Shown piece after piece: positions 1 through 39,213 of a DNA stretch of 64,000 bases. Numbering within the stretch: position 1 is the first letter of the stretch; each line of letters opens with the position of its first letter. The position numbers and the translations under genes are program-made. The notes under the pieces are model-generated. The model was not told where the DNA came from and searched no databases. It saw only the letters and a list, made by a program, of their open reading frames with translations. Location of the stretch: positions 104,656,001 to 104,720,000 of the forward strand of contig NC_092344.1 of NCBI RefSeq assembly GCF_963676685.1. The letters run 5' to 3'. This DNA comes from Mytilus edulis. Lineage: Eukaryota.

Positions 1-1042
1 AACAAAACGGGGTTCCCAACTGAAATATAGTTCTTATTGCACTAACCACACAATGTGGGAAATAAAAAAGGCAATATGCGACGAAATATATGATAAATTT
101 GGTTATATTAACTAGTTTACTCATATTTTCAGGCTTAAAGCAGAATGAAAATAATTCAAACGGAATCTTAAGCCATTTTATTTTAGTTTTCTTGTCTGGT
201 GGTATCCAAGAATCTGCAAGTGTTAATTGTACTAAAACACACAGGAACAGAAACATGCCTGAGGTAATTATATATGGATCTGTAAAACCTATTAGTTGTA
301 TTAAGTACCCGGTACCTATTTGAAAGCTAACAGAGCCAACGGCAGATAAAGCATCGTATACTGTCATCATTAAAGATCTATCTTTTCCCTCTGAGGTTAC
401 ATCTGCAAGAATAGCGAAGTTTGTTATTTGATATGTATAAAACGATCCTGCAAGCCCTAATATTCCACATGCAATGGTATAATAATATAAATTCATGTTT
501 CTATACACGATTACTGTTTTAAGAATAAATGAAACGAGTGTGATAACTAAATTCCACATCAAAACAGGTTTCCGTCCAATTTTATCAGCGATTGGTCCTG
601 CGAAAACTACGATTGGAAATGAAACACCCGCTTCAGCAATTTGCATGTACCATGACCAGTCTGATGCTAATTGTTGTAGTTGGTCGTCTGATGATGTTGA
701 ATTGGCATCACACGTCTTAAAGTTTTCAGTAGAATTATTCTGTGTTTCATCACGGGTGTCATTTAAAGAATAATTATTTTTTATGTATGAATAAGTAAAT
801 TGTGGTTCGATTGTTGTGGTCACAGTAATCGCACAGTTGTAAATTAATGCATACATCATCACTTTCATTCTTGTACTCATACATTGTGTGTATGTTTTCT
901 CCTTAACTAATAGAACTTCCTTTTCATATGTTTTATCCTTGGCCAATAGAACTTCCTTTTCATATGTTTTATCCTTGGCCAATAGAACTTCCTTTTCATA
1001 TGTGTTATCCTTGGCCAATAGACCTTCTTTTTCATCGTCCAT
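1..1042 (-). CDS. SLC46-family MFS transporter paralog A, first coding exon (3' part runs off window)
   Basis: Absent from the ORF track because its stop lies outside the window. Manual translation from ATG at 1042: MDDEKEGLLAKDNTYEKEVLL...IEPQFTYSY...LASDWSWY...GPIADKIGRKP...IRTIFQLGTPFC, in frame to base 1. Same motifs as the other paralogs. Confidence 0.9.
   Translation of the reverse strand, partial: MDDEKEGLLAKDNTYEKEVLLAKDKTYEKEVLLAKDKTYEKEVLLVKEKTYTQCMSTRMKVMMYALIYNCAITVTTTIEPQFTYSYIKNNYSLNDTRDETQNNSTENFKTCDANSTSSDDQLQQLASDWSWYMQIAEAGVSFPIVVFAGPIADKIGRKPVLMWNLVITLVSFILKTVIVYRNMNLYYYTIACGILGLAGSFYTYQITNFAILADVTSEGKDRSLMMTVYDALSAVGSVSFQIGTGYLIQLIGFTDPYIITSGMFLFLCVLVQLTLADSWIPPDKKTKIKWLKIPFELFSFCFKPENMSKLVNITKFIIYFVAYCLFYFPHCVVSAIRTIFQLGTPFC
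890..1033 (-). repeat. Coding 36-bp minisatellite x4 (EKEVLLAKDKTY)
   Basis: Plus-strand unit aatagaacttccttttcatatgttttatccttggcc repeated about four times, in frame at the N-terminus of paralog A. Confidence 0.95.
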
Positions 1043-2027
1043 ATTTGTCTATTTAGAATGAACACTTACAACATACACGTTCGTTTATCAATAAATAAAT
1101 ATTTATATTTATTTGTGTGCATATACACTAACAGAAAATTATGTCCTATCTTTTTGACAATGATAACTACATGTGGAGATAAACATGCATCTATAGAAAT
1201 TTGAGGGAATATGGTTCACTCTACATATTAATTATTTGCTTAGGATTTTTTTTACTGTAGATGAGTCTTATAATCGAATACCGTGAATACTTAATTCAAT
1301 CTAGTTATTTTTTTTCTAAATTGTATGACCCCATTGGTAAATAAGCCTGTAGAAATATTATCATTCATGTACTCCATATGTCACGTAAATCATTGGTAAA
1401 CAGGGGGCTTCTGTTTTGCTGTGCGGGATGTATACATACGCAGTCACGTTCGGTCGAAAAGGGAACTTTAAATTCTAAATTTTAACAAATATTTTTATGA
1501 TTATATATTCAAACAGCTATGAGTAAGTTCTGAAACTATAGAAATAAAAAAAAAAAAACTTTTCTGGCTCTTGTATTCACAAAAATATCTACATTGTGTC
1601 TTGCAAAGTTTACTTTCGTTGCAGAATGTCGTATAATTGTCCTGGTTTCCAGTTGTCTACAGCCGGACAGCAAATTCCTGATTTGTCCGTTAAAACCCTG
1701 GCTCGCTAGTGGGCAATTATGCAACATCTCCTAAATTTTATAGAATCAAGACATATATATACTCATATATACATGGTATTTAAATATAGTTCAATGATTT
1801 CAAGAAATGTATGATAAACATCAATAACTGAAAAATGAGGGACACTCAATTTGTTCAGTTGTTCGAATAGGAAACACAGTATTTGTTTTTAAATAAGAAG
1901 CATGGGCTTTTTCGAGTTTGTCCTTCACCGGAAAAAAATCGTCAATTATGCACGCCTTTATGACGTCATTTACCAGATAGAGGGGATCGCATATATCCCT
2001 GCACTATTAACCTTCATCGAGTGTCTA

Positions 2028-2783
2028 AGACCCTGTTCACACTAGGACATTTTTATCGATTTAAACTAGACCGGTTCACTTTAGATCGGTTTAAGGGCTA
2101 ATGTAAACTAAAACACCAAAAGAGGTGGTTTAGTTTGAATCGATCTAAAGTAAACCGATCTTACTTTAGATGTGAACGTAGAGATCGGTTTTTAAAACTA
2201 GTACGATTGAATCGAAAATAACGAAAATAACGTATCCGCATGTACAGCAGCAAAACTATCTCAGAGGTTCGTTGTTTAACCCATATTTTTCTGTTAAAAG
2301 AACTTTAAAACAAACTGAAAACATGTTGTCTTCGCCGTAGCATAGATTTGCGAAATCTGTGTCTTCTTTTCTTATGTTGATTTTTTTTCTTTGCAGGAAC
2401 CGCAGTATTTCCGGCGTCGTGTTGTAACTTCGTTGCTACAGTTATTTTTTTCAAAATTAAAGAAAACTGCAAGAACACCAGTATCAAAATTTTAACTTGT
2501 GATTCAAGAGAAACACTAAGTTTATCCAATTTTTTTTCCCAAGTGTGTGTATCAGTGTATCAACACATGAATTTGATAAATAATTCTATTCATACACAGT
2601 GTTTACAGTTTTTACGTGCAAAAAGGTTAGATCGATTGCGTTTTTAATTGGAGTGTGAACGCAGTGGCTCAGATAAGACCGATAGAGATCGTTATGATTA
2701 AAGATAATGTGAACGCTAACTGGTTTTATTTAGATCGATTCAAATTAGATCGATAAAAAATAATGCTAGTGTGAACAGGGTCT
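2028..2783. mobile_element. MITE (non-autonomous DNA transposon, Harbinger-like ends)
   Basis: TIR agaccctgttcacactag ... ctagtgtgaacagggtct; TA/TWA flanks; subterminal gatcga/gatcgg motifs; no ORF. Confidence 0.8.
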
Positions 2784-5129: not shown

Positions 5130-5571
5130 ATGGATCTTGGAGTAAGAGCACGTCTTCGCTATCAAGCAGCTCTTATTCAGGCCAGACTCAACTTAAATGT
5201 AGCAAATATTAACCTTATAGCTGTCGAAAGGAGAAGAAGGAGAAGACAAAGGAGATGGTGGACACGACCATGGCTTAGTCCTGAAAGACGACGCAGTTTT
5301 GGTCTATATGACCAACTCATGACCGAACTTAGGCGGGAGGATCGGCATTCCTTAGTACACTTCCTTCGAATGCCCACCGAGATGTTCGACGAGATATTGC
5401 AGCGGGTTGGGCCTCGCAAAGCCAAGCAGAATACCTTTTACAGAAATCCGCTGGAACCAGGACTCAAGTAAGCAATTACACTTAGACACCTTGCTTCTGG
5501 AGCAAAATATCGTAGCATGCAGTACGGATGGATAGTTCCGCATAGCACCACATCCGTTTTCATACCAGAGG
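5130..5571 (+). pseudogene. Harbinger (HARBI1-like) transposase N-terminal fragment
   Basis: RRWWTRPWL...YDQLMTELRRED...FLRM...FDEILQRVGP...PLEPGLK*AITLRHLASG is the typical Harbinger N-terminus. In-frame stop at 5469-5471; no DDE core follows. Confidence 0.85.
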
Positions 5572-5615
5572 TACATAATATAAACAAATTCAGAAAATCA
5601 ACTTAAACTCTATAA

Positions 5616-8700: not shown

Positions 8701-8744
8701 TGGCCATGGATACTACATGAACAAACATTGTTAATAAATGTCAT

Positions 8745-9558: not shown

Positions 9559-12500
9559 TTATTGTAGTAACTCTGTTTTCTCTGTGCTCTGTACCGTAGA
9601 CTTTTCTATGATGATTTCATCACGTATATGCTGTGTATTTGTACAGGAAGTGAATCTAAAATACAAAAAAAATATTTAAGAATAGTCATTCGATTCTATG
9701 GACCTAATGTATATCTTAGTTTGCATTGTTTTTATAACTGAAACGTGAAAATAAATATAAGATTGGATAAAAATAGTCGCCTTTTCTCCGATGATGTATC
9801 AATCTGTTCTAATTTACTTTTAAATCAAGTCTTAATGTAGACAACAAATATTACTGACCGAGTGTATTCAATAAACTTTTTAGTGTTTCTATTTTTCTTG
9901 TTTTCTCATGTTTTTTGTTGTTGTTGGGTTTTTTTTGTTGTTTTTTTTGTTTTTTTCGTTTCCTTTTAGGTGGCATATGGACACACTGATATAATGAACG
10001 TGCAGAATTCGACAATAAGTATTGCACTGCCTCATTCCGATAAACAGACTTTTTGACAACACAATTGAACTGAAAAAATACAGTGTTTAAAGAAGTTTGT
10101 TTTTGATCTCATCACAAATTAAATGAATAAAATACTGATTTAAGATTATTGGCGTTTTCCAAAAGTAAGTTAAATGTCCAATTTCAACTGCCGATAATAA
10201 ATAGACAAGTTTCCCAGACTAAATTATTGATACCAAAATATGTATAATTTACTGATTCATATGCAAACCTTTTAAAAAACATCATTCAAAGAAATATTGC
10301 ACACTGACGACGGCTAGTGTTTCTATTTGGATTCGTGCGTTTGACATGATCATCTTTTTGTTGAAGTGAAATCGGTTGAAATGATGTGATTGATTAACAA
10401 TGTAATAGGAACGCTGCATTTACTTTATGGTCCATATCTCGAATTCTGAGTGAAATGTTTGAAGCATTTATTATATAAGTTTGTCGTTTTAAAAAAATTA
10501 CATTAGTAAAAGTACTGCAACTGTTGAGACACCCGCCATAACAAAAAATACTAATCCGTTGTATATGGACAAAGTCTGGTCATAAATGTTGTTAAATAAA
10601 GTAGCAGCTCCAAGTGAACAGACAGCTTCCAGTAGGTACACATTCGAAAATAATACACCTAAAAAAGAATAGAAATGTATTTTATCAATCCTAGTTTTAG
10701 ACCGATCAGTCATAGTAAAGCGTCAGAAAAATACACAAATAACTATAAGGAAGCCTGGTAAAACTACCGTGATCTACATCAGTAAAGGTCCCGGATAACG
10801 TATACGAAGCAATGTTCTGGTAACGATAATAAGGACGATGCCGTCAATTTGCGGTCAGCAATTTCCAGAGCTAATTCAAGGAGAAGGAATTCCAAACCAT
10901 ATGATCGTCCGGTGGAAAATCAACAAATGGTAATGGCCGTCAAGACAACAATGGTACAAAATTCAACACAAAAGAATTATGTCGTGGCTTTAGCCAATTC
11001 AACGTCAATGATGGGAACCGTGGTAAATCAAACAGCAATTTCCAATCAGCAGTGTGCTTTTACTGCAACCAGCCCGGTCAAATTTTTATAGGACTAACAT
11101 TAACAATACCAATTTTACTGAACCAGATGTGTATTTCGATGATAAAAATCTCATCATTGATGCTCGAAGCAAACTACTTGAAAATCCAAACTTATTCAAA
11201 AATTGAAAAGCTGGTAAATCCTAGTACAATGACAAAACAGTATTGCCAATTTGGATATATGAAAACTCTCATCATACAATACATAGCCTTATCGTGGATT
11301 TGATTGCTTATCATTCAACATGTGATATCAATTATCCTTATACTTAGTTACCTTGCTTGTCTTTACTAACTAAACGAGAAAGTACTGCTTTAATCATAGA
11401 AATTGGCAGAAACCTCAGTAAACCAACTGCTGTTCCTGAAAAAAATATTCAAATGTTTGAACTTTATCATTTCTATATTATCTTAGGGCAAATTCCTTAT
11501 AATTCAATCATATACAACTGTACAAAACCATTGCAATGTCAAATAAAAAGTCAATTATGATACACGATGGTCTTGGTGTATACATTCTGTGTACTGATGT
11601 TGTTTGTCATCTTAACAACGTATTATATTGTTCTTTCATTTGTCTTAGTTCTATTATTAATATTACTTTTACTGTTGGCTTGTTTTCTGTGATATCAATT
11701 TGGCGTGGCTCGGTACTTAAACATCCCGTCAATGTGTTTGTATTGTCTTTCATTTTTTTGCTGGTGTGTTTTGTATATGCACCTTTGTATTTCTTTGGTT
11801 CTTATAACGTGACTCTGTACTTTTAAAGATCCCGTCAGTATGATATTGTTCTATTTTATGTCATTATGATATATTTCTATTATGAATTACAAAATTATTC
11901 AATCGCGTAGTGGAATGAACTATTTGTAGATTCTTATAAATTCTATATAACTTTTGGACTATTTTAAATCTTAGTCTATTTCTGAAATCAATTCTTACAT
12001 ACTTTTGATTTTTTAACCCTGTATGCTAACATTGCCTATGTGAAATTTTGAAATTGTTTGTATGTACATTGAACGACAAATATCTGTGACGTTTAAAATT
12101 TCTGATGTCAGACACGCGAATCAATGAATGTATATGTAGATAGATATTTATGTGTTCTGCTAAATTGTTTCTTTTAAAATTGTTACACGATGATGACTGC
12201 TGTACCCATATTTTGGCTATTTTATTTATTATGTCTCTTTAGTTCACGCATCATTGGTAATATACCGAAATTTGATGAGACTATCATAAAAGTGAGAGGT
12301 TTAGCGCTATAAAACCAGGTTTAATCCACCATTTTCTACATTTGAAAATGCCTGTACCAAGTCAGGAATATGACAGTTCTTGTCCATTCGTTTTTGATGT
12401 GTTTTGTTATTTGATTTTGCCATGTGATTATGGACTTTCCGATTAGATTTTCCTCTAAGTTCAGTATTTTTGTGATTTTACTTTTTATGAATAGACTAGA

Positions 12501-15322
12501 GTGACCAGAGTGAAAACGTGTATTGTCTAAACTGACTTTCTGTGCTATACAATGAAACTTGGTTGCATTTTACTGATAAAAGAGGGACGAAAGATACCAA
12601 AGGGACAGTCAAACTCATAAATCTAAAACAAACTGACAACGCCATGGCTAAAAATGAAAAAGACAAACAGAAAAACAATAGTACACATGACACAACATAG
12701 AAAACTAAAGAATAAACAACACGAACCCCACCAAAAACTAGGGGTGATCTCAGGTGCTCCGGAAGGGTAAGCAGATCCTGCTCCACATGTGGCACTCGTC
12801 GTGTTGCTTATGTGATTATAAATCCGGTAAATAGTCTAATTCGGTAGGTCACATTCATGAAAGGGAAGGGGATTGTAGTTACGACGTAAGGAACATATCC
12901 GATATCATTTGTGAAACGGTTATTCCATAACGGTCAACCAACTCGTGATGGCGTCCGTAAAATTTACGAAGGGATGATTTCAACTTCACCATTTGGAACT
13001 CTTGGTTTAATAGCTTCCTTGTGAGCAGTAACCCTCTATCAAGAAAATCATGATAGGAAATGCAAGCACGGGAATATCGTATCAATTGGGAGATATATAC
13101 CCCGTATGCAGGTGCTGCTGGAATGTTGCTACTTAGAAATGGAAAGTTCACAATTGGAAAGCTGAAATCATCTCTTTTGTCGTAATGTTTTGTTTTCAAC
13201 TGACCCTCATTGTCAATTTCTAGATGTAAGTCAAGATATGAAGCCGACTTAACTGTATCTGTAGTATCCTTTATCTCCAATTCGATGGGATAGATGCGTT
13301 CCACATAGTGACCAAATTTTGAATTATGTAGTAAAAGAACGTCATCTATATAGCGGAAAGTAGAGTTAAAGGATATTGCTAACTTCTTATCTTTCTTCCT
13401 AAGAAGTTCCTGCATGAAGTCAGCCTCATAATAATAAAGAAACAAGTCGGCAAGTAGAGGGGCACAGTTTGTTCCCATTGGGATGCCGACAGTCTGTTGA
13501 AAAACACGTCCTCCGAACGTTACAAATATGTTGTCAAACAAGAAATCAAGCATCTTGATAATATCGGTTTCAGAGAATTTTTTGTTTGAATCAGAGTGAT
13601 TCTTTACAAAGTATGATTTATCCCTCCCTAAGACAAGATACTTGTATCTACGTTGGCCATTCTTTTTTATGAAGCAAAGTAATACCAACTCTTTTAAATT
13701 GTCTTTTAGTTTGGAATGTGGAATACTTGTGTACAGAGTAGACAAGTCAAATGTTTTAATACTGTTACAAGATGAAAGAGAGTTAGATTGTATGATAAAA
13801 GTCATGGCTATATATAAGGGCGAAAAATGATGTGGGCTCTTCTGGGATGAATTTGTTATCTAATAATAACATAAGGAATTTGTTATGTATAGAATGTCCT
13901 CACGATTTGTTCTTATTGTGTAATATTCGAAAAGTTTCAGTACTTCAATAATTGTTTGTCAAATCCACTTTATTATTGAAATACTGAAACTATTCTAATA
14001 TTACACAATTAAAGAGAAGATTTAAGGTTCTAACTTCCAGAGTTATCTTTAGATAATTTGTCTACTGTGGTGTCCCATTTGGTAATAATTATCTTCAAGT
14101 ATTCATTCATCCCTTGACTGTAATTGTTTTGGTTTTGAGCGTTCCTGATTAGACTTAATAGACCGCATCAAATGTATAGTTATATTTTCGTTACCTTACC
14201 TATATAAATCATTGAATCATCAGTTGAAAATCCGAACAGAACAAAACATGCTACACCAGATAGCATGCAAAAGATTGAAATCACGTCATCATTTAGACGA
14301 ACACAGCATACGTGTAGAAATTTGATCACGAAACCGCCTAAAATATATACTGTACAATTGGTTATAGTGTTGTACCATCCAATATGTTCCGAAGTCCAAC
14401 AAAAAGGTTCGCCTAAGATATAAATTGTTCTTATCGAGAAAGCACCATTCATGGGCAAGTAATAAAGACAGTACACAACAAAATATAATATAAGAAATCT
14501 GACGTAATGTTTGCTATTTTGTTTTGATGATTTCCATAATGTGAACAACTGTCCTGGAATTTCGCGGAAACGGAGTGTTGATGTAATTTCTTGTGGTTTC
14601 CACGGATCTTTAAGAGTAATGGTGATTAAGATTAACAGAGAGAGCATTAGTCCTGATGATATAAGATAAGGGTAAGAAAAACCAACAAGTTGTATCAAAT
14701 ATCCAGTACCGACTTGAGAGCATGCAGTCCCAAGTCCAAGGAGTGCTTCATAAACAACAAGCACGAAAGATCTTTCTTTTCCTTCTGACGTGCAATCTGC
14801 CAAAATTGCAATATTGGCTAAATGAAAAACGTAAAAATTTCCAGATAAACCCAGAATTCCACAAGCAACAACATAGTAATATAAATGTAAATTCATGTAA
14901 ACAATTGTTGTTTTTAAAGCAAGTGATACACATACTAACAAAACGTTCCAAAGAATAAGAGGTTTTCGTCCAATTTTATCTGCCATTGGACCTACAAACA
15001 TTAAAACCGGAAGTGCAAATCCAGCCTGTGCTAACGAAATATACCACGACCAATTTGAGGTTAAACCTTGGATTTTGTCATCAGAAGCTGATGTTGAATT
15101 GATGATACATGCCTTTTGTGCTTGTAGAGAATCGTTAGCTGCTTTGAAGTCGGTAGAATTTGTAACACTTTTTAAATACGCATATATATACTGTGGTTCA
15201 GCTTGGCCAGATGTTTCAAATGCACAACCATAAATCATCACATAAACCACCACCCGTAATTGAGTACCAAAACTTCCGAATGATTTATCATGTTCTTTTA
15301 AAAGAGGTTTCGTTTCCTCCAT
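9559..15322 (-). CDS. SLC46-family (PCFT/SLC46A3-like) MFS transporter paralog B, 4 exons, ~486 aa
   Basis: Exons 15322-14200, 11435-11352 (84 nt), 10658-10502 (157 nt), 9655-9559; all GT..AG with consistent phases. Motifs GPMADKIGRKP, LGEPFCW..HIGW, IKAVLSRLVSKDKQGVLFS, FNNIY; ends EKTELLQ*. Confidence 0.9.
10770..11100 (+). mobile_element. Degenerate retroelement gag-like fragment (possibly DIRS/Ngaro) in intron 2 of paralog B
   Basis: DNKDDAVNLRSAISRANSRRR followed, after frameshifts, by a G/N/R-rich stretch and CFYCNQPG(Q), a zinc-knuckle remnant. Confidence 0.4.
12577..13795 (-). mobile_element. Penelope-like element reverse transcriptase, 5'-truncated, with 3' UTR
   Basis: ORF 12879-13805: FDLSTLYTSIPH, QQTVGIPMGTNCAPLLADLFL, FRYIDD, YLDL, YDKRDDFSFPIVNFPFLSSNIP..AYGVYISQLIRYSRAC. 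No C-terminal GIY-YIG. Lies in intron 1 of paralog B. Confidence 0.88.
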
Positions 15323-16614: not shown

Positions 16615-16640
<26 letters not shown>

Positions 16641-16647
<7 letters not shown>

Positions 16648-20872: not shown

Positions 20873-23800
20873 TTATTTTTCAATTCTTTCTATCTGAACA
20901 TCAGGATTGTGAACCACCAAGTCAGTGTGGCTTGTTGAAGACTTTCTCAAAATGGCGAACCTTAAGAAATAAAAAATTGGTAAATAAATCAATAATATTT
21001 CTTGGTTGAAACTGAATGTACATGATAATCAAATCAGTATGGCTTGTTTAAGATTTTCTGATAAAAGAATAATTATATAATGATTTGTTTTCGATTGAAA
21101 AAAGAGTTTATACATGACAATCAACGCAGTGTGGCTTGTTGAATATTTTCTATAAATAGAAAGCCTTTAAATTATAAAAAAAAACACAAATCTTCACGAA
21201 ATGAACATACATGTATGACAATAACCGCATTTGATTTGTGGGTATAATGAAAGAAACACTTAATTAATTTTCCTCCGTCTGCAGCGTTTATCTGGTGAAC
21301 ATCGATTCACGTTTTTCCTCTGCGGTTCCCCACGATGGCGATGACAAAAAAAAGAATTATTTAACACTCAACAATAGTTTTCTGTAATATTCCCTTCTTT
21401 TCAAATGAACTGTTGAATTTTGAATGATTAGTTGTTTAATCCTGAAGTGTGGTTTGTCAATGATTCCGTACTTGAAAAGGGAAAATGAACTTACATAATC
21501 AAAATTGTGCCCAATATCTGGAATCCAGCCATTACGAAAAATACCAAACCTTTGTATAAAGGTCTTGTTTCATAGTAAATATTGTTGAACACTGATGAAC
21601 CTCCCACTGCACAAGCGGCTGCTACAAGACAGATATTGGAAAACAAAACACCTAAGAAGAAAATGAAAAATAAATAACAACAGTATTAAATCAAGTAGCA
21701 TTGAAAATAAAGTGTTGATCAGTTAATTTTATCATGCAGTTGTATGGAACAAAAACACAAATAAACGGTCAGATAACAGTTTAAAAATGCCTTCTTAATA
21801 CATATAGTTGTCAAAGGTACCAGGATTATAATTAAATACGCAAAACGCGCGTTTCGTCTACATAAGACTCATCAGTGACGCTTAGATCAAAATGGTTATA
21901 AAGCTACACTAGTACAAAGTTGAAGAGCATTGAGGACCCAAAATTCCAAAAAGTTGTACCTAATACGGCTAAGATAATCTATGTCTGGGATAAGAAAATC
22001 CTTAGTTTTTCGAAAAATTTTAAGTTTTGTAAACAGGAAATTTATAAAAATGACCAAATGATTGATATTGATATCACCACTGGGCTGGTGATAACCTCGG
22101 GGACGAAACGTCGACCCGCAGTGGCATCTACCCAGTGGTGTAAATAGTTATCAAAGGTACCAGGATAATATTCATCTAAATTATTATAGTATCAAACTTT
22201 TCCATGTATAAGTGCAAAGATGGCACTATTCCTTCCGTATCTTGCATAAATCATATCGTTCTGGACAGTATATCAGACTATAATACCCTAAATATCTTTA
22301 CATTCTCATATATCTTTTAATCAAATATCAAGTCGCTATATATTTGTATAAGTTTACCTTGTTTTTCAGGAATAACTAATCTAGACATGATCGCTTTCAG
22401 TAAAGGTATACAAAGAATCCTAAACAAACCAACTGCTGTAGCTGAAAAATATCTTTTTTAAATATTACATATAGTTTAATGAGTTGTGAAAGTATTGGTA
22501 GCTCATCATATTCATCATCTACTTGGTGTGTTTTGAAATTTTGTTTAGTGTTTAGAATTCTTATTACCACCTATTTATCCCGAAGTTGGTTTATTCCTTT
22601 TGTCTAGCAATTAATAAGACTGGTCTTAGTTAATAAATATCACCGTCATAATAGTGCTTTATCGTTTGAAATCTCTGGTTGATTTATTTTATAATCTTGA
22701 TTAATTTACAACGCTGCTCTGTTAACTATTTGCTGGCGGCATACGTTTGTAGCTCATGTACATGTGCAATGCAGTGTCAATCTATAGGGTCAATTACGTA
22801 ACCAGTTTCTTTAGAATTGTAAAAAAAGTATAAATATACGCAAAAAAAAACTAGATAAATTTTGAAGAAGTGCTTGCGTATCATGCAGATTAAAAATCAT
22901 TTTAATGATATTTTAGTGCAAGGGAAGTTGCAGTTAATGAAAATCAATCTATAAACTTAGAAGCATATATACCTCCATAAAGCATCCAGTCAGTGTTGGA
23001 CAGACCATAAAATACAAAACAACCAACTGAAGAAACGAATCCTAATACGGCAATCGTTTCATCTACGACAACATACTGTAGAATTTTCATAATGAAGGTT
23101 GCGACTATGAATAATTCTATATCTTCACCTGCACCAAACCATCCTACATGAACTGGATTCCAACAAAATGGTGGACCAAGTTGGTATAGCGTTCTAATCG
23201 TCACAAAAGAATTAAATGGAAAATAATACAAAATATACACAATGAAAAACAAAATAAAATGGAAAATAGATACAGTCACTACAGATTTTTGACGGAATAA
23301 GGTAAATATCTGCATCAGAAAAGACGATATCGAAAGCTTAGGCCCTGTTTCCAGTTGTCTACATGTATCTTTCAATGTCACATAAACCAACAAAATATAC
23401 AACAAAAGAACAACTGATGTTATTAAGAATGGATAAGTATATCCTGTTAATTCTATTAGATATCCAGTGAGTAATTGTGCACAGGTAACTGAAATTCCAA
23501 GAAAAGAATCGAAAATTACCATAAGAAACGATCTTTCTTTGTTATCTGTAATATCTGCCATTATGGCGTGGTTTGCTAAATCAAACGTGTAGAAAGTTCC
23601 AGATATACCACTCACTACATGAGCAATAATCAACCAATAAAGATCCATTGACATATATACAATTACCGTCCGAAATGCAAACGATAGAAATGTAAATACT
23701 GCATTCCACAATAAAATGGGCTTTCGACCAACTCGATCAGCCATCGGACCAACCAAAATCACAATAGGTATGGCCACTCCATACTCTGAAACTGTGAAAT

Positions 23801-24056
23801 ACCAAGTCCAACTAGAAGCTTGTTCCTGGATGTTATCCTCATTGTTCTGGCCACATTCCTTCGGTTTTGATGTTGTCACATTATTTGTTTCATTCAAATC
23901 AGTATGTTCTTTTAAATATGCGTAGATAAACTGAGGTTCGGCTCGACCAGTAATATTTAAAGCAAATCCATACAGTAATGCGTAAGATAAAACGAATTCA
24001 CGGGTCCAACGGCTTGATCTATTCTGTTTTTGCACCAGTGGTGATTTTTCATCCAT
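20873..24056 (-). CDS. SLC46-family MFS transporter paralog C, 4 exons, ~470 aa
   Basis: Exons 24056-22973, 22441-22358 (84 nt), 21651-21495 (157 nt), 20960-20873 (last exon least certain). Motifs GPMADRVGRKP, LGPPFCWNPVHVGW, LKAIMSRLV. Confidence 0.87.
21804..22172 (-). mobile_element. Retrozyme-like non-autonomous unit (340-nt period) in intron 2 of paralog C
   Basis: Terminal direct repeat atagtt(g/a)tcaaaggtaccaggat at 21804 and 22144; hammerhead core near one end; no credible ORF. Confidence 0.75.
21838..21881 (-). ncRNA. Minimal type I hammerhead ribozyme
   Basis: Minus strand reads GCGUCA-CUGAUGA-GUCU uaugu AGAC-GAAA-CGCGCG-UU^-UUGCGU: intact core, 4-bp stem II, palindromic minimal stem III, stem I with one mismatch. 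Confidence 0.78.
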
Positions 24057-26667: not shown

Positions 26668-27109
26668 GAATGAAATCAAAACAGTGTGGCTGTGGCCATT
26701 GATTGACACATTAAGTTCATCCATTGACTGGGACAATTTAGGTGAACGTTTGTATGTAACGACCACTGCTCACTATGTACTTTTTAAAGACACTTAAAAT
26801 ATGGGGTCACCAAAGGTTCTCAACACCTTAATAAAGTAATTCGAAAAACTAATCAGAAATAACATGATGTTTTGATTTATATCAATTATATAAATCAAAA
26901 CATAAAGGTTATTCCTGATTAATTTTTTGAATTATTTTATAATTAAAGGCGTTAAGAAACCTTTGGTGACCCCACAGTTTAAATGTCTATCGTAGGTACG
27001 TCGTGAACAGTGGTCGTTACAGACAAACGTTCATGTAAATTGTCCCAGTCAATGGATGAATTTAATGTGTCAATCAATGGCCACAGCCACACTGTTTTGA
27101 ATTTCATTC
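26668..27109. mobile_element. Foldback MITE (~440-bp near-palindrome) with TA target duplication
   Basis: gaatgaaatcaaaacagtgtggctgtggccattgattgacacatta ... taatgtgtcaatcaatggccacagccacactgttttgaatttcattc; TA at 26666-26667 and 27110-27111; half-copy at ~29220-29410. Confidence 0.9.
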
Positions 27110-30100
27110 TATTCATTGTTTTGGGCTTCGTTGACATCTTTTTGGCTTTGTACTGTTGGTTCATCAACTGCAATTTCCTGTTGTTCTGTCTGAGTTCTGG
27201 TACGTTGTGTGCATCTGAAAGTGAATTAGATTTTCTTTTAAGACATCTTGTATACGGTTTAAGCCTTACCTTTTCCATATCTCTAATCTTATCCTAGGTT
27301 ATTTAATACAATAGTTTTGACCATTATTACACCTGGGCCTACCAATTTGAAAATGCTTGTTTGACATAGTTAGACATTGAGCAATAATTTAATTAATCTG
27401 AAAATTTGACACTTTCAATCCGAAATATTTAAATGATTAGATTATTGGTGGCAAATATTTGTTGCAAATTTATAACATAATTGTATTTCCGTTTTCTTAA
27501 AGAATGTTTAAATGAAAATCAAGACAATAATGTTAAAACAAAACACGGAATAACCGAATCTTTTTTTTTAAACTCACATGAAAAGAACTACAGCACACAT
27601 ACTAAAACTGGCCATAACAATGAAGACCATTCCTTTGAATATTGGTCGTGTTTGATGGTATATGTTGTTAAATACTGTTACACCACCAAGCCTGCATGTT
27701 GCTTCTATGAGGTATATGTTAGAGAAAAGTGTTCCTATGAATAAAACAAAAACTATTTTTATTTTTGTGTACGTATTTTATTAATCTTTTATTATGTATT
27801 TCCTATTTACATCACGACAGACGGATCATCCGGGATTATTTTAAATACTAGCAATTTAGTAGAATATTTGAAGTTTTAGAAAACGATTTTAATCTTTACA
27901 CTATAAAGATACTTGCTTACTGTTTCAATTCTGTATGCCGTTACTGATTTTCTAGTTTTACTTTGATTACTAACTCAATTACATATACTCAATGAACCTA
28001 AAGAGTCAAAGTAAAATGAAACTGTTTTAGTAAATTTCAATAGTGACGTTCAGTGTTAAATGTTTAAAATTCAACTTAATATTGTCCGTGTCATTGATTT
28101 GAATTCGAAGAAAACTTAAACTTTGTTCTTAAAATGAATTTGTTGACCATGTTTCTTCTTTTACAAATACGGGAAGGTTATTTTATTTAGAATTAATTTC
28201 ATAACAGTGTGGTCGACAGTAAAACGTTTGTAGGTTGTAACTTGTTTGTCAACGGCTATGATTTTATGCTCACCCAGTCTGTTAGAGGCCTTCCAGTGGG
28301 GATTGAAATATTCACTTGTTACACATTCCGATACATAAAATGAAACTTTCTTTTTACAAAGCTTGAAAGGAATTTGTTTTAAATATTTATTATAATCATC
28401 ACATACAACCGTGTCATTTATAAGAATAATAATGTTCAGAGATGATATTATTTAATAATAATAAAAAAATAGGTTTATCCATTGTAAAAAAAAACTATTA
28501 AGTTGATGGGGTTAATTCACAAAATATCTCATTGATTAAGAGCACAACTACTTCTACGGTGTGATCATTTTAGAATGGCCTACTATTTATTCAATGCGTA
28601 TACATGTGGGTTTTGTTTGTGAAGAGTTCTGGATAATTAAAAAATCATTTGATTTCTTTGTTTAATACCATAAAACGATTCATTCTTTCAGATATATGTC
28701 ACTTTGCCTTATCTTCAAGTCCAACACAATTTCTCACGTTTCTTACAAAACTTATATTCTTGAGATGTATTCTTTTGTTGAAAAAAAATGTATAGATATA
28801 GATAGATATAGGAAGATGTGGTATGAGTGCCAATGAGACAACTCTCCTCCCAAGTAATAATTCATAAAAGTAAACCATGATAGGTCAAGGTACGACCTGC
28901 AACACGGAGCCTTGGCTCACACCTAACAGCAAGTTATAGAGGGCCCCAAAACTACTAGTGTAAAACCATTCAAACGGGAAAACCAACGAGAAACGAAAAA
29001 CACATATGAACTACATAAACAGACGACATCATGCATTGTAACTTTTAAAGCCAATTAAGTAAAAAAAATAATCTGAAAGAACGTGCGATATCATATTAGG
29101 AAAATTGATGGTCAAACCATAACAAAAAATCAAGTAAAGAATTTTAAGTATTCAACCTTTATAGCTTGCTGTTCATGTGTGAGCCAAGACTCCGTGTTGA
29201 AGGCCATTTTTATTTATTTTCAAATCACAAAGGTTATTCCTGATTAGTATTTTTAATTATTTTATTTAGGCGTTTGGAACCTTTGGTGACCTCACAGTTT
29301 AAATTTCTATGATAAGTACGTCGTGAGCAGTGGGCATTACAGACGAACGTTCACCTAATTTTCCCCAGTCAATGAATGGCCATAGCTACACTGTTATGAA
29401 TTTCATTCTATGTATTCTTTGAATTCTTTTGCCCTGTGAGTTTATTTTTATAGGTTCTAACCTACTGTATTACTTCATACAAATATACTTTTGATATTAC
29501 CTTGTTTGTCTGGTAAGACCATTCTGGACAGAAATGATTTCAATAGAGGATTTGGTAAAATTCTAATTACTCCAATAGCTGTGGCTAAAAAAAGAAAAAC
29601 ACAATACTCAAAACTAAAACAAAATATCAAATTAATATACCAGTAATGCAGAATTCAAAACGATTAAGGAAAATGAGATCAAAGATATAGATGTTGTTTA
29701 GATTTTAACATGATTCCATCGGTTCATATATTTTCTCTTTTTTTTTGTATAAAGTAAAATATAAATAAGAATACACAGGAAAGCACGACCAATCGTATAA
29801 TGACGATTTAACTAGGTCTGTTTGATTTCGTGTCATAGATTTAAAATATATGAAAATCATCGCTTTTTCTATCTGGTTGATGTTTTATGTGTTCAGAATC
29901 TGATTACGAAAGTGATCTTCCCTGTTGCAGCCTTGTTTCACTTTTAATGTTACATTCTTTTCATTTTAAATACAAAGCATGCTGAATCAATGCGTAAACC
30001 CATCCAAGTTAAGGGTAAAGTTGAGGCATGGATACGGATTTAATTGAGTTCAATTATTGACCTGCAATCCAATAATACATCATCGACTTATTTTGACAGA

Positions 30101-33512: not shown

Positions 33513-36500
33513 TTAGTTTTTTGCGATAACAAGTGTATCTTCCTTCTGTGATTTCTCAAGATTTTCGTCACAATCGCAATTTTCTTTCCGGTTCTGAACT
33601 GTTGGTTCTTCAACTTTAATCTCGATTTTATCTGATTGAGTGTTTCTGCATGTCACGCACCTGAAATGTAAATGAATATATCGTGATACGTCAAGGGATA
33701 TTATAAGTATAACCCTTTTATATTATAAACAAATTTGCAGCTATTAGATAATTTTACCTGTACCTTTGAAAACTATTTACCTACTACTCCATATACAATT
33801 CAAGCAGTCGGTAATATATTCAAGACAAAGAACCTATGAATATCTTTTTTTTTCGTTTTTTTTTGTAAATACTGCAAGCAGGCAAGTAAGAATGTAAATA
33901 TATTCAAAGCGAAATAACTAAATTGTTATTAATTAGAAAATATAGATAGTTAACAAAAAAAACAGAAATTTACATCCTATACCCATCTTTCAACTGACTG
34001 TAAAATCTTAATAATATATCTCAAAATTGACAAATTAATGAACTCAAATTAGGTCACAAATAGACAATATCAATATCTCCGATTGTTGAAGACTTCTTAC
34101 GATTAATTGAAATAATTTTCATATTTATATAATTCGTATATGATTTGCATATCTGCAATTTGTCCAACTGATTTTTCCTTGGTTTACTCTTCAGTAAATC
34201 ATGCTGTCGAAACCACTTCTTAACCTATATTAACACTGTACCACAGCCATGCCCAATACACAAGATCAAATCCTGGGGTTTACACACCAGGAACTTCCCC
34301 AAAATAATGGGTTTATCTAACAGTTACTTCACACAGCTGTTTGACGTTTTACAATAAATGAATTGACTGTTCGGCGTGCCTGCATAAATTTAAATATTCA
34401 TATTTCATATGTGGAGCAGGATCTGCCTATCCTTTCGGAGTACCTGAGATCACTCCTGGTTTTTTGTGGGGTTCGTGTTGCTTATTCTTTAGTTTTCTAT
34501 GTTGTGTCGTGTGTACTATTGTTTATCTGTTTGTATATTTCATTTTTAGATATAGCGTTGTCAGCTTTTTTTTCGATTTATGAGTTTGACTATCCCTCTG
34601 GTATCTTTTGTCCCTTTTTTGTATCCTAGTAGTTTATATTTTATTGATAGTAATTGGTAAAATAAGGTTTGAGCTTTTTTGTTCTCACGGCAAAATCATA
34701 CTAACAAATGTTCTTTAACGCAAAATAAGGCATTCTCTTTTAAATGTCTTACTGAAGTATGCATTCAACAGGAAATAATCTGCACGAAAATTGAAATACA
34801 TCTCTAGTTAATATTTACTCACATTAAGAGAATACCAGCACACAATGGAAATAAAGCCATAACAAAGAATACCATGCCTTTAAATATCGGACGAGTGTGG
34901 TGGTATATATTGTTAAATAATGTGGAACCACCCAGTCGGCACACAGCTTCTAGTAAGTATATATTAGCAAAAAGTGCTCCTGTAATGAAAAATATGGTAG
35001 TAAAAAAGGCAAATAGATCTGTCTTCTTAAAATCAAAAGATAGTAACTGACCATTAATCTTTTATAGAGAGGAAATGGTTTTTAAGTGAATTGTTTGATT
35101 TTGGTGTTTTTAAACAAATATGATTTGTTTCAGAAGGAAATTGAAAAATAATATATTGATTTCATTTTAAAATTCTAACAAAAATATCGAACTCCAAGGC
35201 CAATTCATATTATAAATCAACGGAAAGAGGAAAAGAAAACTGCCATATTCCTAACTTGGCACAGGCATTTTACGAAGAAATGCTTCAATTGTATATATGC
35301 TTCATTGAAATATTTTGAAAAGTGTTTACCTTGTTTGTCTGAATGGACCATTCGAGAAAGGATTGACTTTATTATCGGTATTGGTAATATTCTGATGACA
35401 CCAATGGCAGTAGCTGAAATGGAAATCATTGATTTAATTTATCTACAAACACAATATAAGAATGGGTATTATATATCTTACTCTTTTCGTGTTCACGCAA
35501 ACAAATTAAACAATGCAAACCCACGAGCATTGCTATATATTATAAATCCATTTCGTGTAAGTATTTTGAAGGCATAACATGAGTCTTCACAATATCAACA
35601 TGATAAGCCTGGTATCTGCCATGAGTTCAGTTTGTTGATTTCTTCTCTATCGACAAAAAGTATCTTTACAAACAGATTTTTTTTATAAACACTACCATAT
35701 AGTACTGATTTTCTAATGACACTGAGATGTTAGTATTTGGCAAACACTTATTTATAGCAATACATTTGTAAAATGTCCAAAAGGAAAACATGATTTGGAA
35801 TGGACAAGAGTCAGATCTATCGATAGCCATACTAAAACTATTTAAACCATGAAGAAAATAAACAAACGTGAAATTAAATTCTTCTATATTGTATAATATA
35901 CAAATCAGAATTCTTAGCAACACATTCTTAAAAGACACAACTCAAGAATTTACCAAGGTAAATCATCCAATCGGTTGACGAGAATCCAAACACAATGTAA
36001 CACGTTACTGAAGAAGTGAATCCCAAAAAGGCTATTGTATGGTCCTTCATACAAAGAAGAAAAGATTTAAGAATCAAGATTCCAATGACAAATTCACAAA
36101 AATATGCTGCAGCTGTATACCATCCTACTTTGACAGAAGTCCAGCAAAGAGGAGCTCCAAGCTCATATAATGTTCTTATACCTCCGTTTGCCAAATAAGG
36201 AAATTCATTTGTAAAGTATACAAGTATATACATCAGAAATAATTGTCTAGTAGAATTCATTAATATGTTTGTCTTTCTACACAGTGAACATACGTCAATA
36301 AATGAAGACGATATGTTTACAGGATTCTTCTTGATTGGTAATTTAGAGTTTTCCTTCAGTGTGATGATAATTAAAATAAGAATTAAAACTAATAACGCAG
36401 TTCCTGTAAGGAATGGGTATGTGTATCCAGTCAGCTTGATAAGGTAACCAGTCGCTATATCAGAAACACAAATGCCAATTACCATCATGGTATCAAATAG

Positions 36501-37073
36501 TGCTATATTGAATGGTTTAGATTCATCTTGGTTTGTACATGTGTTAAGTATTGAAAGACAAATAACATCATATGTATAATGGCAACCAGCTAAACCCTCC
36601 ACAACGCAAAATAGAAGGTACCAGTATAGATTCAGTTTTGCATACACAGCATATGTCCGCAATGCGAATGTTATAGCAAAGAGAGAGACAGTGTACATAA
36701 GAACTGGTTTCCGACCCACTTTATCCGACAAAGGTCCTAAAACAGACATAACAAGCAATCCAATACTGTAAATCACAAGTTGCATATACCAAGTCCAGTC
36801 CGATGCTAATCCCTGAATGTAATCGTCTGTTATAGATGTCAAATTGTTACTGCAACTCATCTCTTTTATCGAATTATTATATTGTTCTACCGATGTGTGA
36901 TTAGTTGATGCATAGTAAGCCTTAAGGTACGAATATATGTATTGCGTTTCTGATATGTTCAGCATTTCAAGAGAACATCCCCAGATGATGGTATAAATAC
37001 ATATTTTAATACGAGCGTCAAACCAGGATAACTTCTTGTCTATTTTCGCGATCAGTATTTGTTGCTCATCCAT
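33513..37073 (-). CDS. SLC46-family MFS transporter paralog E, 4 exons, ~502 aa
   Basis: Exons 37073-35954, 35413-35330 (84 nt), 34979-34823 (157 nt), 33660-33513. Motifs GPLSDKVGRKP, LGAPLCWTSVKVGW, IKSILSRMV. Confidence 0.9.
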
Positions 37074-38111
37074 ATTTACTATAATTATGATCGTTGTTGA
37101 AATCCAGAGGCAAATATATCAAGCATCTTCGAAATCAGCACGACGTTTTTATTTTGTATGTTTATATTTTGTAATCCGTATATTCAATTTACTCAGAATG
37201 TATTTGTGTAGAAAAGATAAAAATTAAAGTGTGTAGTGTAGATTATTTTCTGTATATCATTGTGAATTGTAATAATTATATTTTGATAAATAAGCACATG
37301 TTTATATCTGTAATCAACTACTGTAACACATGATGTTGTAGTCCTTTCCTTTATGTACATGCATACCTACTGATATAAATGTTTAGAACTACATGTATCG
37401 CCAAAACGATACCTTTTGATTTCAGTCTATTAATTTTTTATTACTTTGTAAACAACTAGGGCCCAAATTTGTCACAAAGACGTGCTCTCAATAATTTTAA
37501 GTGAAACAAATACAAAAAATAAACGTTACAAGTCCATTATATTTTAGGTTGAGTATCAAAAGAGTATTCAAATCTAGTTTAATAATTATATTAATATGTC
37601 TGTACCAGGTCAGAAAACTTGTCAATGGTTGTATTTGTTTATTTCTTTGTTTTTTTTCGTCTTTAGTATTGGGCATATCTTCAGTAGTCTTTAAGATTAA
37701 TTTATTCAAAGCCTTGCTAGTCATAATTTTTAATGCTTAATTAAGTTTTGATTATTTTTTTTTATTTTTCACATTTTTTGCATTTTATATAACAGCGGTG
37801 GCCATTTCAGAAATTTCGTACCATTCCAACCTATTTTTCTAGATATACTCATTTTGATAAATCTTTTTCCTGGATTCATGTTTCATTGTTTTGTGTCATC
37901 ATTGGCATATACCGTGAATCTTTTTTATTTATAATATTAGAAATGCTAGTAACCAATGAATATCTGAATATAAAGGTTAATCACTTTCGATTAATTCTTA
38001 TTTGATAAAACTGAAACATATGCCGCACTTAATAATCGACTTGACCAAACTTATGTACTTATGTAACGTTACAATAAGTAAATTGTTTTGAAATGTGTAA
38101 AGACAACTCAC

Positions 38112-39213
38112 CACCATATATCATCCAGTCAGCTGAACAAAATCCGTACAGCACAAAACTTGCCAATGTAGACGTGTATCCAAGCATTGCAATTGCATAT
38201 CCTTTAACACAAGATAGCAGACCTTTTAGAATAACTGTCCCAATTACTAGTTCACCAGTGGCAAGTGCTGCACTAAACCATCCTATATGAACAGAAGACC
38301 AACAAAATGGTGGTCCTAAGATAAACAACAGTCGAATTGTAGAGTTTGCTGAAAGTGGCAAAAGATGAAAAAGGTATATGGTATAATACACACATAAATA
38401 CTTAATGTTGTTACTCACTAATGCATTTTTATTGGAAAAAATAACGCAAAGATTTTTTGGGAGTGATAATACGTCGACTGTTTTCTTATTGGTATTGTCT
38501 TCAAGTGTTAATATAATAAGTATAAGTACAAGACACAGACATCCAATTGATACAAGATAGGGATATGTATATCCTGAAAATTTGATAACATATCCTACTC
38601 CAATCTGTGAGATACTCATTCCTATCCCCATCATGGCGTCATAAACAGCTAGTACAAATGGTCGTTCTTTGTTTGGTTTGGTAGAGTTTGTAAGAACCGC
38701 ACTACAAGTTAGATGATATACATAGTGACATCCAGATATACCTTCCACTGCACTGAATCCAACGTACCAGTAAAGATTTAAATCTTCATATATTGCATAG
38801 GCTCTAGCAGCGTATGATAAAATTGTAATCATTAAATTATACATTAACACAATTTTTGCTCCTTTAATGTCGGACATTGGACCTGCTATTACCAGTACCG
38901 GTAAACATATGCCATATGTCACAAGTTGAATGTACCACGTCCAGTCGGATGCTAAACTTTGTATATAGTCATCATTCTCTCCAGTCATATTTCCTGGACA
39001 GTTCTGTTCGGTTAAATTGTTTGACGTGGATTCGTAGGTAGTGTTTTTATTTGTGTGGTGTTTCTTTAAATATGAATACACATATTGTGTTTCAGTAACA
39101 CTTTGGATTTCCAATGCACATCCATGAATCATTACAAATATACACAATTTAGTACGAACATCAAACCAGCTACTTCTTGCATCTTTTGTTAACAATTTTT
39201 GACGCTCATCCAT
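38112..39213 (-). CDS. SLC46-family first exon F (367 codons, ~TM1-9) with no dedicated downstream exons
   Basis: Uninterrupted ORF from MDERQKLL to DWMIYG; phase-1 donor G|GTGAG at 38112/38111. No 84-nt or 157-nt exon homologue seen between 38111 and 37074. Confidence 0.85.

What the first reader, a model, noticed from the sequence alone, without database searches (positions are those of the whole stretch)
1..39213. Tandem expansion of at least six highly diverged SLC46 transporters, possibly an endolysosomal ligand-import repertoire
Seen: six co-oriented paralogs, all with open frames and strongly diverged; the array may continue to the left. The 84-nt exon matches the in-frame 28-codon exon 3 of human SLC46A1 (established from hereditary folate malabsorption). 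Established: vertebrates have three SLC46 genes; SLC46A2/A3 and a Drosophila homologue import muropeptides, and SLC46A2 imports cGAMP. Inference: in a filter-feeder this cluster may be a diversified set of importers for microbial ligands or nutrients rather than redundant folate carriers.
Basis: partly seen in the sequence, partly recalled or inferred. Interest (0 to 1): 0.7.

Follow-up and report, generated by a model that had tools for sequence, protein, structure and literature searches.

The report
Mussel transporter cluster with swappable exon
This is a row of old, diverged SLC46 transporter genes in a mussel, probably working in lysosomes and probably not ordinary folate carriers; one gene has two alternative front halves that share one back end, a layout best known from drug-metabolising enzymes.

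Summary
The SLC46 cluster is real, but it holds five genes, not six. Six open large exons (33–46% identical) lie on the minus strand, yet the 84-nt and 157-nt exons occur only four times. The rightmost large exon (g1) has no 3′ exons of its own, and three Mytilus protein models, one named 'isoform X2', join it to g2's. g1 and g2 are therefore alternative front ends (TM1–9 and the start of TM10) on a shared back end, as in UGT1 or protocadherin loci.

All six proteins begin with an acidic dileucine motif, which suggests lysosomal sorting. All lack the PCFT Arg156–Asp164 pair used for folate binding and proton coupling. The five with a 3′ module in the window keep the TM5–TM10 gate pair. They are most likely lysosomal proton-coupled exporters of varied organic anions (inferred). 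Nothing here points specifically to muropeptides or cGAMP.

g1 may be decaying: it lacks a motif-A arginine essential in human PCFT and diverges faster than g3. SLC46 expansion in molluscs is already reported; I did not find the shared-exon layout described.

The parts
38112..39213 (-). g1: variable large coding exon (367 codons, TM1-9 and start of TM10); intact phase-1 GT donor; no 3' exons of its own; motif-A Arg replaced by Ala
   Evidence: joined to g2's 3' exons in models P0007, P0008 and P0031
35954..37073 (-). g2: second variable large coding exon (373 codons) of the same gene
   Evidence: joined to the same tail in P0012, M. coruscus
35330..35413 (-). shared 84-nt exon of g1/g2 (rest of TM10, Lys at the PCFT Arg384 position)
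34823..34979 (-). shared 157-nt exon of g1/g2 (TM11-12, Glu at the PCFT Glu407 position)
33513..33660 (-). shared terminal coding exon of g1/g2 (cytosolic tail, to stop)
   Evidence: matches the tails of P0007, P0008, P0012, P0031
31202..32321 (-). g3 large coding exon
   Evidence: 99.6% to M. edulis P0020 over 263 aa
29501..29584 (-). g3 84-nt exon
27578..27734 (-). g3 157-nt exon
27109..27214 (-). g3 terminal coding exon, ending early at a stop made by a MITE insertion
   Evidence: longer tail in P0017 and P0020
26668..27108 (.). about 440-bp palindromic MITE-like element inserted at a TA in g3's last exon; the last 7 codons are stranded at 26667-26644
   Evidence: inverted arms 26673-26818 / 26958-27103; sequence
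22973..24056 (-). g4 large coding exon
22358..22441 (-). g4 84-nt exon
21495..21651 (-). g4 157-nt exon (Ala at the PCFT Glu407 position)
20873..20960 (-). g4 candidate terminal coding exon (tentative)
   Evidence: top-scoring acceptor candidate, E 0.07 only; length
14200..15322 (-). g5 large coding exon
11352..11435 (-). g5 84-nt exon
10502..10658 (-). g5 157-nt exon
9559..9655 (-). g5 terminal coding exon
   Evidence: start matches P0032
1..1042 (-). g6 large coding exon, cut by the window edge; its 3' exons are not visible
891..1035 (-). 36-nt x4 coding tandem repeat in g6 that gives four copies of the acidic dileucine motif

Best explanation
This is an old tandem cluster of SLC46-family MFS transporter genes in a Mytilus mussel: four genes with their own 3' exons, plus one cut by the window edge.

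Shown: every gene has one large exon (TM1-9 and the start of TM10) followed by 84-nt, 157-nt and terminal exons. The rightmost gene has two large exons in tandem (g1, g2) and one set of 3' exons.

Inferred with good support: either large exon is spliced to the shared 3' exons, giving two 12-helix isoforms that are only 46% identical over the variable part. This is a minimal variable/constant layout.

Inferred: an N-terminal acidic dileucine signal sends the proteins to late endosomes or lysosomes. The acidic lumen drives export of small organic anions released by intracellular digestion (sterol or bile-acid-like conjugates, vitamins, xenobiotic conjugates, possibly microbial fragments) into the cytosol. 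Gating would use the retained TM5 acid-TM10 Lys pair. Loss of the TM4 Arg-Asp pair and paralog-specific charges in TM1, TM4, TM7 and TM8 point to substrates other than folate that differ between copies. The substrates themselves are not shown.
For: Layout: only 4 copies each of the 84- and 157-nt exons, none between g1 and g2, with 8 of 8 leave-one-out recoveries. The g1 donor is intact, at the homologous position and in the same phase as the other four. P0007 ('SLC46A3-like isoform X2', Mytilus) is the g1 exon plus g2's tail, 94.6% to the window's g1+g2-tail model. P0008 (M. trossulus) and P0031 also join g1 sequence to that tail; P0012 (M. coruscus) joins g2 to it.

Fold: the g1 isoform (P0007) folds as a complete 12-helix MFS protein with the broken TM4 of PCFT (pLDDT 80.6); top fold match 7bc6, E 5e-17. 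The gate pair spans the exon boundary (D191 in the variable exon, K382 in the constant part).

Sorting: dileucine motif at residue 3-4 in 6 of 6 window proteins and within the first 30 residues of 24 of 27 relatives, including a scallop protein. Loop 1 carries multiple N-glycosylation sequons. Human SLC46A3 and the nematode homologue are lysosomal.

Pocket: the Arg156 position is S/C/C/H/C/C and the Asp164 position C/C/S/T/N/S; the Glu193 position is D or E in 6 of 6; the Arg384 position is K in 4 of 4 and the Glu407 position E in 3 of 4 3' modules.
Against: No transcript was seen. The splice rests on gene models, and predictors join neighbouring exons readily: P0008 and P0031 use odd internal donors, as do models of g3 (P0020) and g5 (P0032). 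g1 shows signs of decay (see rival). AlphaFold would fold almost any SLC46 chimera, so the model is weak evidence for the splice. The dileucine motif is a pattern match only, and the six copies are not independent. No substrate, location or expression was measured. Whether human SLC46A2 or A3 also lack the TM4 pair was not tested, because no such sequence was available.
Confidence: 0.55

Rival explanations
1. g1 is a dying paralog. It lost its own 3' exons by deletion, and its transcripts splice into g2's exons only by default; the product is weak or transport-dead and is being lost. The locus is then an ordinary birth-and-death cluster. This concerns g1 only.
For: The motif-A Arg (human R113, which cannot be replaced in PCFT) is Ala in g1 but Arg in the other 31 of 33 aligned rows, and Ala in all three Mytilus g1 alleles seen. 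g1 differs from the database allele at 25 of 366 residues, against 8 of 335 for g3 (Fisher p = 0.007). The M. trossulus model uses only 241 aa of g1, and P0031 only 31 aa. The best tree puts g1 outside g2+g3, which fits a once-complete gene.
Against: The full 366-367-codon frame is open in two genomes. The donor, dileucine motif, both disulphide cysteines, motif-A Asp/Gly/Lys and the TM5 acid are all kept. The Ala is shared by three alleles, so it is old. The codon-position identity pattern (2nd > 1st > 3rd) equals that of the other paralog pairs. A g1+g2 clade is not rejected (p-AU 0.17).
Confidence: 0.35
2. The cluster is an innate-immune repertoire that moves muropeptides or cyclic dinucleotides from phagolysosomes to cytosolic sensors.
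For: Drosophila CG8046 and mammalian SLC46A2/A3 deliver muropeptides, and all three human SLC46 proteins import cGAMP to some degree. Lysosomal sorting fits. SLC46 is reported as expanded in a symbiotic vent snail.
Against: No diagnostic residue for these ligands was found in the passages read. There is no immune-expression or positive-selection evidence. The copies are old (35-46% identical, with orthologue-like partners elsewhere), not a fast-turnover array. The one mussel paper found mentions an SLC46A3 only as a developmentally dynamic qPCR target.
Confidence: 0.17
3. The copies are redundant proton-coupled folate carriers (a dosage expansion), as some database names suggest.
For: The closest solved structure is PCFT. 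The Glu193 and Glu407 positions, which bind the pterin end, are largely kept. Some Mytilus models are named 'proton-coupled folate transporter-like'.
Against: Arg156 (binds the glutamate tail) and Asp164 (protonation site) are absent in 6 of 6, and Asp294 in 6 of 6; His289 is kept in 1 of 6 by my anchor mapping. Pocket charges differ among copies.
Confidence: 0.1
4. The proteins serve lysosomal copper or metal handling in a metal-accumulating filter feeder.
For: Mouse Slc46a3 and C. elegans slcr-46.1 affect lysosomal copper. Several paralogs carry Cys/His at the TM4 pocket positions.
Against: The nematode paper itself says other cargo is possible. A single metal would not need six diverged pockets (inference).
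Confidence: 0.08
5. g1's own 3' exons are missing only from this assembly (collapse or mis-join).
For: The window is repeat-rich, with a 31-bp satellite just upstream of g1.
Against: The window has no N bases, and models from other Mytilus assemblies also join g1 to g2's tail.
Confidence: 0.03

Closest known systems
Vertebrate SLC46A1/PCFT (chicken structure 7bc6/7bc7)
   Same: 12-helix MFS fold with broken TM4, long glycosylated loop 1 with a Cys pair to the TM7-8 loop, motif A, TM5 acid-TM10 base gate pair; the 84-nt exon sits at the place of human exon 3
   Different: Arg156, Asp164 and Asp294 absent in all six; Arg384 is Lys; N-terminal dileucine motif; the first two coding exons of the human gene (recalled) are one exon here; 21% identity in the fold alignment
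Vertebrate SLC46A3 (lysosomal H+-coupled steroid-conjugate/bile-acid transporter) and C. elegans SLCR-46.1
   Same: Same family; predicted lysosomal sorting; probably non-folate organic-anion cargo. This is what the cluster most likely works like.
   Different: Human SLC46A3 uses a C-terminal tyrosine motif, the mussel proteins an N-terminal dileucine motif. Orthology was not tested.
SLC46A2 and Drosophila CG8046 (muropeptide/cGAMP import)
   Same: Same family; endolysosomal location reported for SLC46A2; from recall, human SLC46A2 has the same four-exon plan (large, 84, 157, terminal)
   Different: No evidence here for these ligands or for orthology
UGT1, GCNT2, UGT2A and clustered protocadherin variable/constant loci (PMC1885805)
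   Same: Tandem paralogous large coding exons, each carrying most of the specificity-determining part, spliced to shared 3' exons
   Different: Only two variable exons; a multi-pass transporter in an invertebrate, split inside the C-terminal helical bundle; embedded among whole-gene duplicates; separate promoters not shown
Lineage-specific SLC46 expansions (Alviniconcha snails; family-size variation among arthropod groups)
   Same: Multiplication of SLC46 genes in an invertebrate lineage
   Different: Those passages give family counts only, with no tandem anatomy, pocket residues or shared exons

Membership tests
SLC46 family (MFS) | 12-helix MFS fold / MFS_1 domain | tested here: met
   Pfam MFS_1 above cut-off in 6 of 6; 12 membrane helices in the model of the g1 isoform P0007
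SLC46 family (MFS) | Closest characterised relative is an SLC46 protein, clearly ahead of other MFS families | tested here: met
   7bc6 E 5.7e-71 against 1.6e-07 for the next family; fold search E 5e-17 against 6e-09
SLC46 family (MFS) | Loop-1 Cys and TM7-8 loop Cys (disulphide), glycosylated loop 1, broken TM4 | tested here: met
   Both Cys invariant in 9 of 9 rows; sequons; helix break at 158-161; PCFT description
SLC46 family (MFS) | Motif A GxxxDxxGR(R/K) intact | tested here: inconclusive
   Intact in g2-g6 (5 of 6); g1 has Ala for the first Arg
PCFT / SLC46A1 (folate carrier) | TM4 Arg156-Asp164 pair | tested here: not met
   Absent in 6 of 6 window proteins and in 33 of 33 aligned rows
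PCFT / SLC46A1 (folate carrier) | TM5 Glu193-TM10 Arg384 gate pair | tested here: met
   Conservatively: D/E in 6 of 6; Lys in 4 of 4 84-nt exons
PCFT / SLC46A1 (folate carrier) | Glu407, His289, Asp294, Tyr323 pocket residues | tested here: inconclusive
   Glu407 in 3 of 4; His289 in 1 of 6; Asp294 in 0 of 6; the Tyr323 mapping shifts by one residue between alignments
PCFT / SLC46A1 (folate carrier) | Acid-pH folate transport | not testable with these tools
   needs uptake assays
SLC46A2 or SLC46A3 subfamily | Orthology in a tree with vertebrate SLC46A1/2/3 | not tested
   No named vertebrate sequences were held; the trees contain only the window proteins and their closest database relatives
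SLC46A2 or SLC46A3 subfamily | Lysosomal sorting signal | tested here: met
   As a motif only: [DE]xxxL[LIV] at residue 3-4 in 6 of 6; a different signal type from human SLC46A3
SLC46A2 or SLC46A3 subfamily | Transport of muropeptides, cyclic dinucleotides, steroid conjugates or bile acids | not testable with these tools
   needs assays
Variable/constant exon loci (UGT1, protocadherin type) | Tandem paralogous coding exons in one phase, with a single downstream set of exons | tested here: met
Variable/constant exon loci (UGT1, protocadherin type) | Each variable exon is spliced to the constant exons in mRNA | tested here: inconclusive
   Supported by database gene models; no transcript was seen
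Variable/constant exon loci (UGT1, protocadherin type) | Each variable exon has its own promoter | not testable with these tools
   No strong acceptor within 160 nt upstream of the g1 or g2 ATG and no convincing docking-selector pairing, which fits first exons but does not show it

The most novel reading that the evidence does not exclude
The g1/g2 gene is a working UGT1/protocadherin-style cassette in a multi-pass transporter. Promoter or exon choice swaps nine of twelve helices, and with them most of the binding pocket, onto a fixed back end. The g1 form, with its old motif-A Arg-to-Ala change, is a functionally distinct carrier or a non-transporting lysosomal sensor or regulator, within a cluster that samples dietary and microbial small molecules.
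Probability: 0.3. Interest if true: 0.65.

Novelty: new variant of a known kind. Interest (0 to 1): 0.4.

Why it matters
Tandem transporter clusters are common in bivalve genomes, and SLC46 expansion in molluscs has been reported, so the cluster alone is ordinary. Two things add value. First, the g1/g2 gene gives a natural helix-swap experiment: two pockets 46% identical on one shared TM10b-12, which lets one test directly which helices set SLC46 specificity. SLC46A2 and A3 are credited with very different cargoes, and only PCFT was found among solved structures. Second, all copies lack the TM4 pair thought central to PCFT proton coupling, so they test whether the TM5-TM10 pair alone can couple transport. 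If the variable/constant layout is functional, it extends a design known mainly from vertebrate enzymes and adhesion proteins to an invertebrate transporter.

Tried and rejected
- Looked for g1's own 3' exons, or remnants, by tblastn, AG..GT scans, and nucleotide and protein profiles: none.
- Looked for further large exons in the window, including between g5 and g6 and right of g1: no hits beyond the six in the part of the tblastn output seen (printed output cut) or among the long open frames.
- Looked for Dscam-like docking/selector pairing around g1/g2: only short chance-level inverted repeats.
- Rfam: 0 matches.
- Could not list the sibling isoforms and accessions of P0007: the database was switched off. 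The identity of 'isoform X1' stays unchecked.
- Origin of the cassette (exon-only duplication, or whole-gene duplication then loss of 3' exons): undecided, p-AU 0.17.
- Codon-model tests not run: no orthologous DNA was available, and third positions between paralogs are near saturation (0.34-0.43 identity).
- The shuffle probability for the dileucine motif (0.001-0.04 per protein) was not multiplied across paralogs, because they share ancestry.
- No tree with vertebrate SLC46: of the 150 rows listed, 14 new ones (P0030-P0043) were used and the lower-scoring unnamed rows were left out.
- No complex prediction; no scan of bacterial genomes (not relevant to an animal gene).
- No supplementary files were read. 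The bioRxiv supplements (Alviniconcha family counts; the Mytilus developmental SLC46A3 gene) were closed and could bear on novelty and expression.

Full report
VERDICT. The cluster is real and is SLC46, but it has five genes in view rather than six. The immune-ligand reading remains possible but has no direct support.

THE OBSERVATION. The window is 33% GC animal DNA without N. Its proteins match Mytilus models closely (g3 99.6% to M. edulis over 263 aa), so it is a Mytilus mussel (inference). Six long minus-strand open frames each encode most of an MFS transporter. They are 32.5-46.4% identical to one another. Chicken PCFT is the best solved relative by sequence (E 8e-25 to 4e-38 for single proteins; E 5.7e-71 for a 33-row profile) and by fold. 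The five complete large exons are 1,084-1,123 nt and all end in phase 1 at a GT donor in the same position. g6 is cut by the window edge.

THE CORRECTION. Each complete gene needs three more exons: 84 nt, 157 nt and a terminal exon. An AG..GT scan and profile searches of the whole window find the 84- and 157-nt exons four times each, behind g2, g3, g4 and g5. Leave-one-out profiles recovered 8 of 8 held-out exons at E <= 1e-13, so a similarly diverged copy behind g1 would have been seen. The gap from the g1 donor to the g2 ATG is only 1,038 bp, against 2.4-4.6 kb from donor to stop in g2, g3 and g5. If its intron were retained, g1 would stop at 384 residues without TM11-12.

Database models resolve this. 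P0007, named 'SLC46A3-like isoform X2' from Mytilus, is the g1 exon followed by g2's three 3' exons (94.6% to the window model). Its species name is cut off in the listing; its contig length equals that of the M. galloprovincialis hit P0017. P0008 (M. trossulus) joins 241 aa of g1 to the same tail. The unnamed P0031 joins 31 aa of g1 (97% identical) to a tail most like that of M. coruscus. P0012 (M. coruscus) joins g2 to it. That RefSeq reports isoforms mainly with RNA-seq support is my recollection; I saw no reads, and the sibling isoform could not be listed.

ANATOMY OF THE TWO ISOFORMS. An AlphaFold model of P0007 (33-row alignment, pLDDT 80.6) has 12 membrane helices with a break in TM4. 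The exon junction at residue 367 falls in the first half of TM10. The variable exon therefore supplies TM1-9, and the constant exons the rest of TM10, TM11, TM12 and the tail. In PCFT the cytosolic gate is closed by Glu193 (TM5) and Arg384 (TM10). In the g1 isoform these positions are D191 in the variable exon and K382 in the constant part, so g1 keeps its half of a contact that needs the shared exons. The model itself is weak evidence for the splice, since related chimeras would also fold.

WHAT THE PROTEINS PROBABLY DO. All six start with [DE]xxxL[LIV] at residue 3 or 4, and g6 has it four times through a 36-nt coding repeat. The motif lies in the first 30 residues of 24 of 27 relatives checked, including a scallop protein; the three misses have one extra residue in the spacer. 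This is the standard endosome/lysosome sorting signal (established knowledge; named as such). Human SLC46A3 is lysosomal through a different, C-terminal tyrosine signal and carries steroid conjugates and bile acids, with minimal inhibition by folates. The nematode homologue is lysosomal and affects copper.

PCFT binds the folate glutamate with Arg156 and takes a proton on Asp164. Neither residue is present in any of the six proteins or in any of the 33 aligned rows; Asp294 is absent in 6 of 6 and His289 present in 1 of 6. Glu407 is kept in 3 of 4 3' modules and is Ala in g4. Charged residues inside hydrophobic stretches differ between copies. I infer lysosomal, proton-driven export of different organic anions. 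Mussels digest food intracellularly in digestive-gland lysosomes (own knowledge), which makes dietary products and conjugates the simplest cargo. Muropeptide and cGAMP import by SLC46A2/A3 and Drosophila CG8046 is documented, but I found no feature that assigns it to these genes.

EVIDENCE AGAINST MY READING. g1 may be decaying. Its motif A has Ala where 31 of 33 aligned rows have Arg (the two exceptions are g1 alleles), and the human equivalent R113 cannot be substituted in PCFT. It differs from the database allele at 25 of 366 residues against 8 of 335 for g3 (p = 0.007), which could be relaxed constraint, positive selection or deep allelic divergence. Two of the three models that join g1 to the tail use only part of the exon, and similar internal-donor models exist for g3 and g5, so such joins can be predictor output. 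Against decay: the whole frame is open in two genomes; the donor, sorting motif, both cysteines and the gate acid are kept; the Ala is shared by three alleles; and the codon-position pattern is that of coding DNA. Trees put g1 outside g2+g3 but do not reject g1+g2 (p-AU 0.17), so the route to the shared layout is open.

AGE AND EXTENT. g1, g2, g3 and g4 each have sister sequences at about 45-60% identity from unnamed sources, and g5 a close one. All six fall in one clade apart from the scallop protein (SH-aLRT 100, quick tree, long branches present). The expansion is therefore old and probably mussel-lineage-specific (inference; only one named non-mussel mollusc was in the tree).

COMPARISON WITH WHAT IS KNOWN. 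It is a member of SLC46; it fails the PCFT pocket test; it works most like SLC46A3; orthology is untested. The 84-nt exon matches human SLC46A1 exon 3 in position (R376 is in exon 3). The 84-nt length in human, and the same exon pair in SLC46A2/A3, are recalled and come from no call. SLC46 expansion is reported in Alviniconcha snails, and family size varies strongly among arthropod groups. Variable/constant layouts are described for UGT1, GCNT2, UGT2A and protocadherins; that paper calls the Ugt1, Gcnt2 and Ugt2a layouts vertebrate-specific and does not contain the word 'transporter'. My searches showed no paper on this mussel locus or on such a layout in an MFS transporter. The library lacks most subscription journals, and the join is already implicit in database annotation.

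PAPERS SEEN. One 10,000-character part plus keyword passages: PMC7612623. Keyword passages only: 10.1101/2023.07.27.550798, PMC11929075, PMC8978580, PMC9896951, PMC11509177, PMC13603547, 10.1101/2025.05.21.655246, PMC7487162, PMC1885805, PMC13216265, 10.1101/2022.09.29.509906, PMC8228594, PMC12743330, PMC6836662. All others were seen as search listings only. No supplements were read.

SCORES. Novelty: new variant of a known kind. Interest 0.4: an ordinary family expansion with one unusual and testable gene layout. Best explanation 0.55 as a whole; by part, SLC46 membership about 0.98, g1 spliced to g2's exons about 0.85, lysosomal about 0.75, not classical folate carriers about 0.75, g1 isoform functional about 0.5.

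Noticed in passing
window 50834-49386 (-): Intronless 482-aa open frame with a Gln/Ser/Pro-rich front, one LIM domain (Pfam) and short repeats behind it. It resembles a LASP/nebulin-type protein (label recalled); possibly a retrogene. It is the nearest gene upstream of the cluster.
   Followed up: partly
window 16613-19540: Large nested palindrome between g4 and g5: 840-bp arms 99% complementary (16889-17728 / 17913-18752) plus outer arms. It carries short ORFs that look like GIY-YIG endonuclease (recalled; no Pfam hit); Penelope-like.
   Followed up: partly
window 13859-12882 (-): 326-aa reverse-transcriptase remnant in the first intron of g5 (RVT_1).
   Followed up: partly
window 4471-6368 and 30330-31112: DNA transposon with perfect 52-bp terminal inverted repeats and 11-bp subterminal repeats, with a broken ORF at 5058-5468 (Harbinger-like, recalled; no Pfam hit); a shorter related copy lies in the first intron of g3.
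   Followed up: partly
window 26668-27108: MITE inserted at a TA in the last exon of g3, cutting 7 residues present in the M. edulis and M. galloprovincialis models; a related partial copy lies near 29233-29378. Probably a polymorphic insertion.
   Followed up: yes
window 9655-9559 (-): The g5 tail differs in frame near its end from the related model P0032, which has a longer tail; looks like a small indel between species.
   Followed up: no
window 34823, 27578, 21495, 10502 (-): At all four 157-nt exon donors, read-through into the intron gives Met then an immediate stop, so intron retention would yield a 12-helix protein without a tail.
   Followed up: no
window 39410-40225; 54319-56347; 62698-64000: Satellite arrays with 31-bp, 65-bp and about 70-bp units; the 31-bp array starts about 200 bp upstream of the g1 ATG.
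   Followed up: no
window 57467-61285 (+): Broken LINE-type retrotransposon fragments (RVT_1 at 60267-60641).
   Followed up: no
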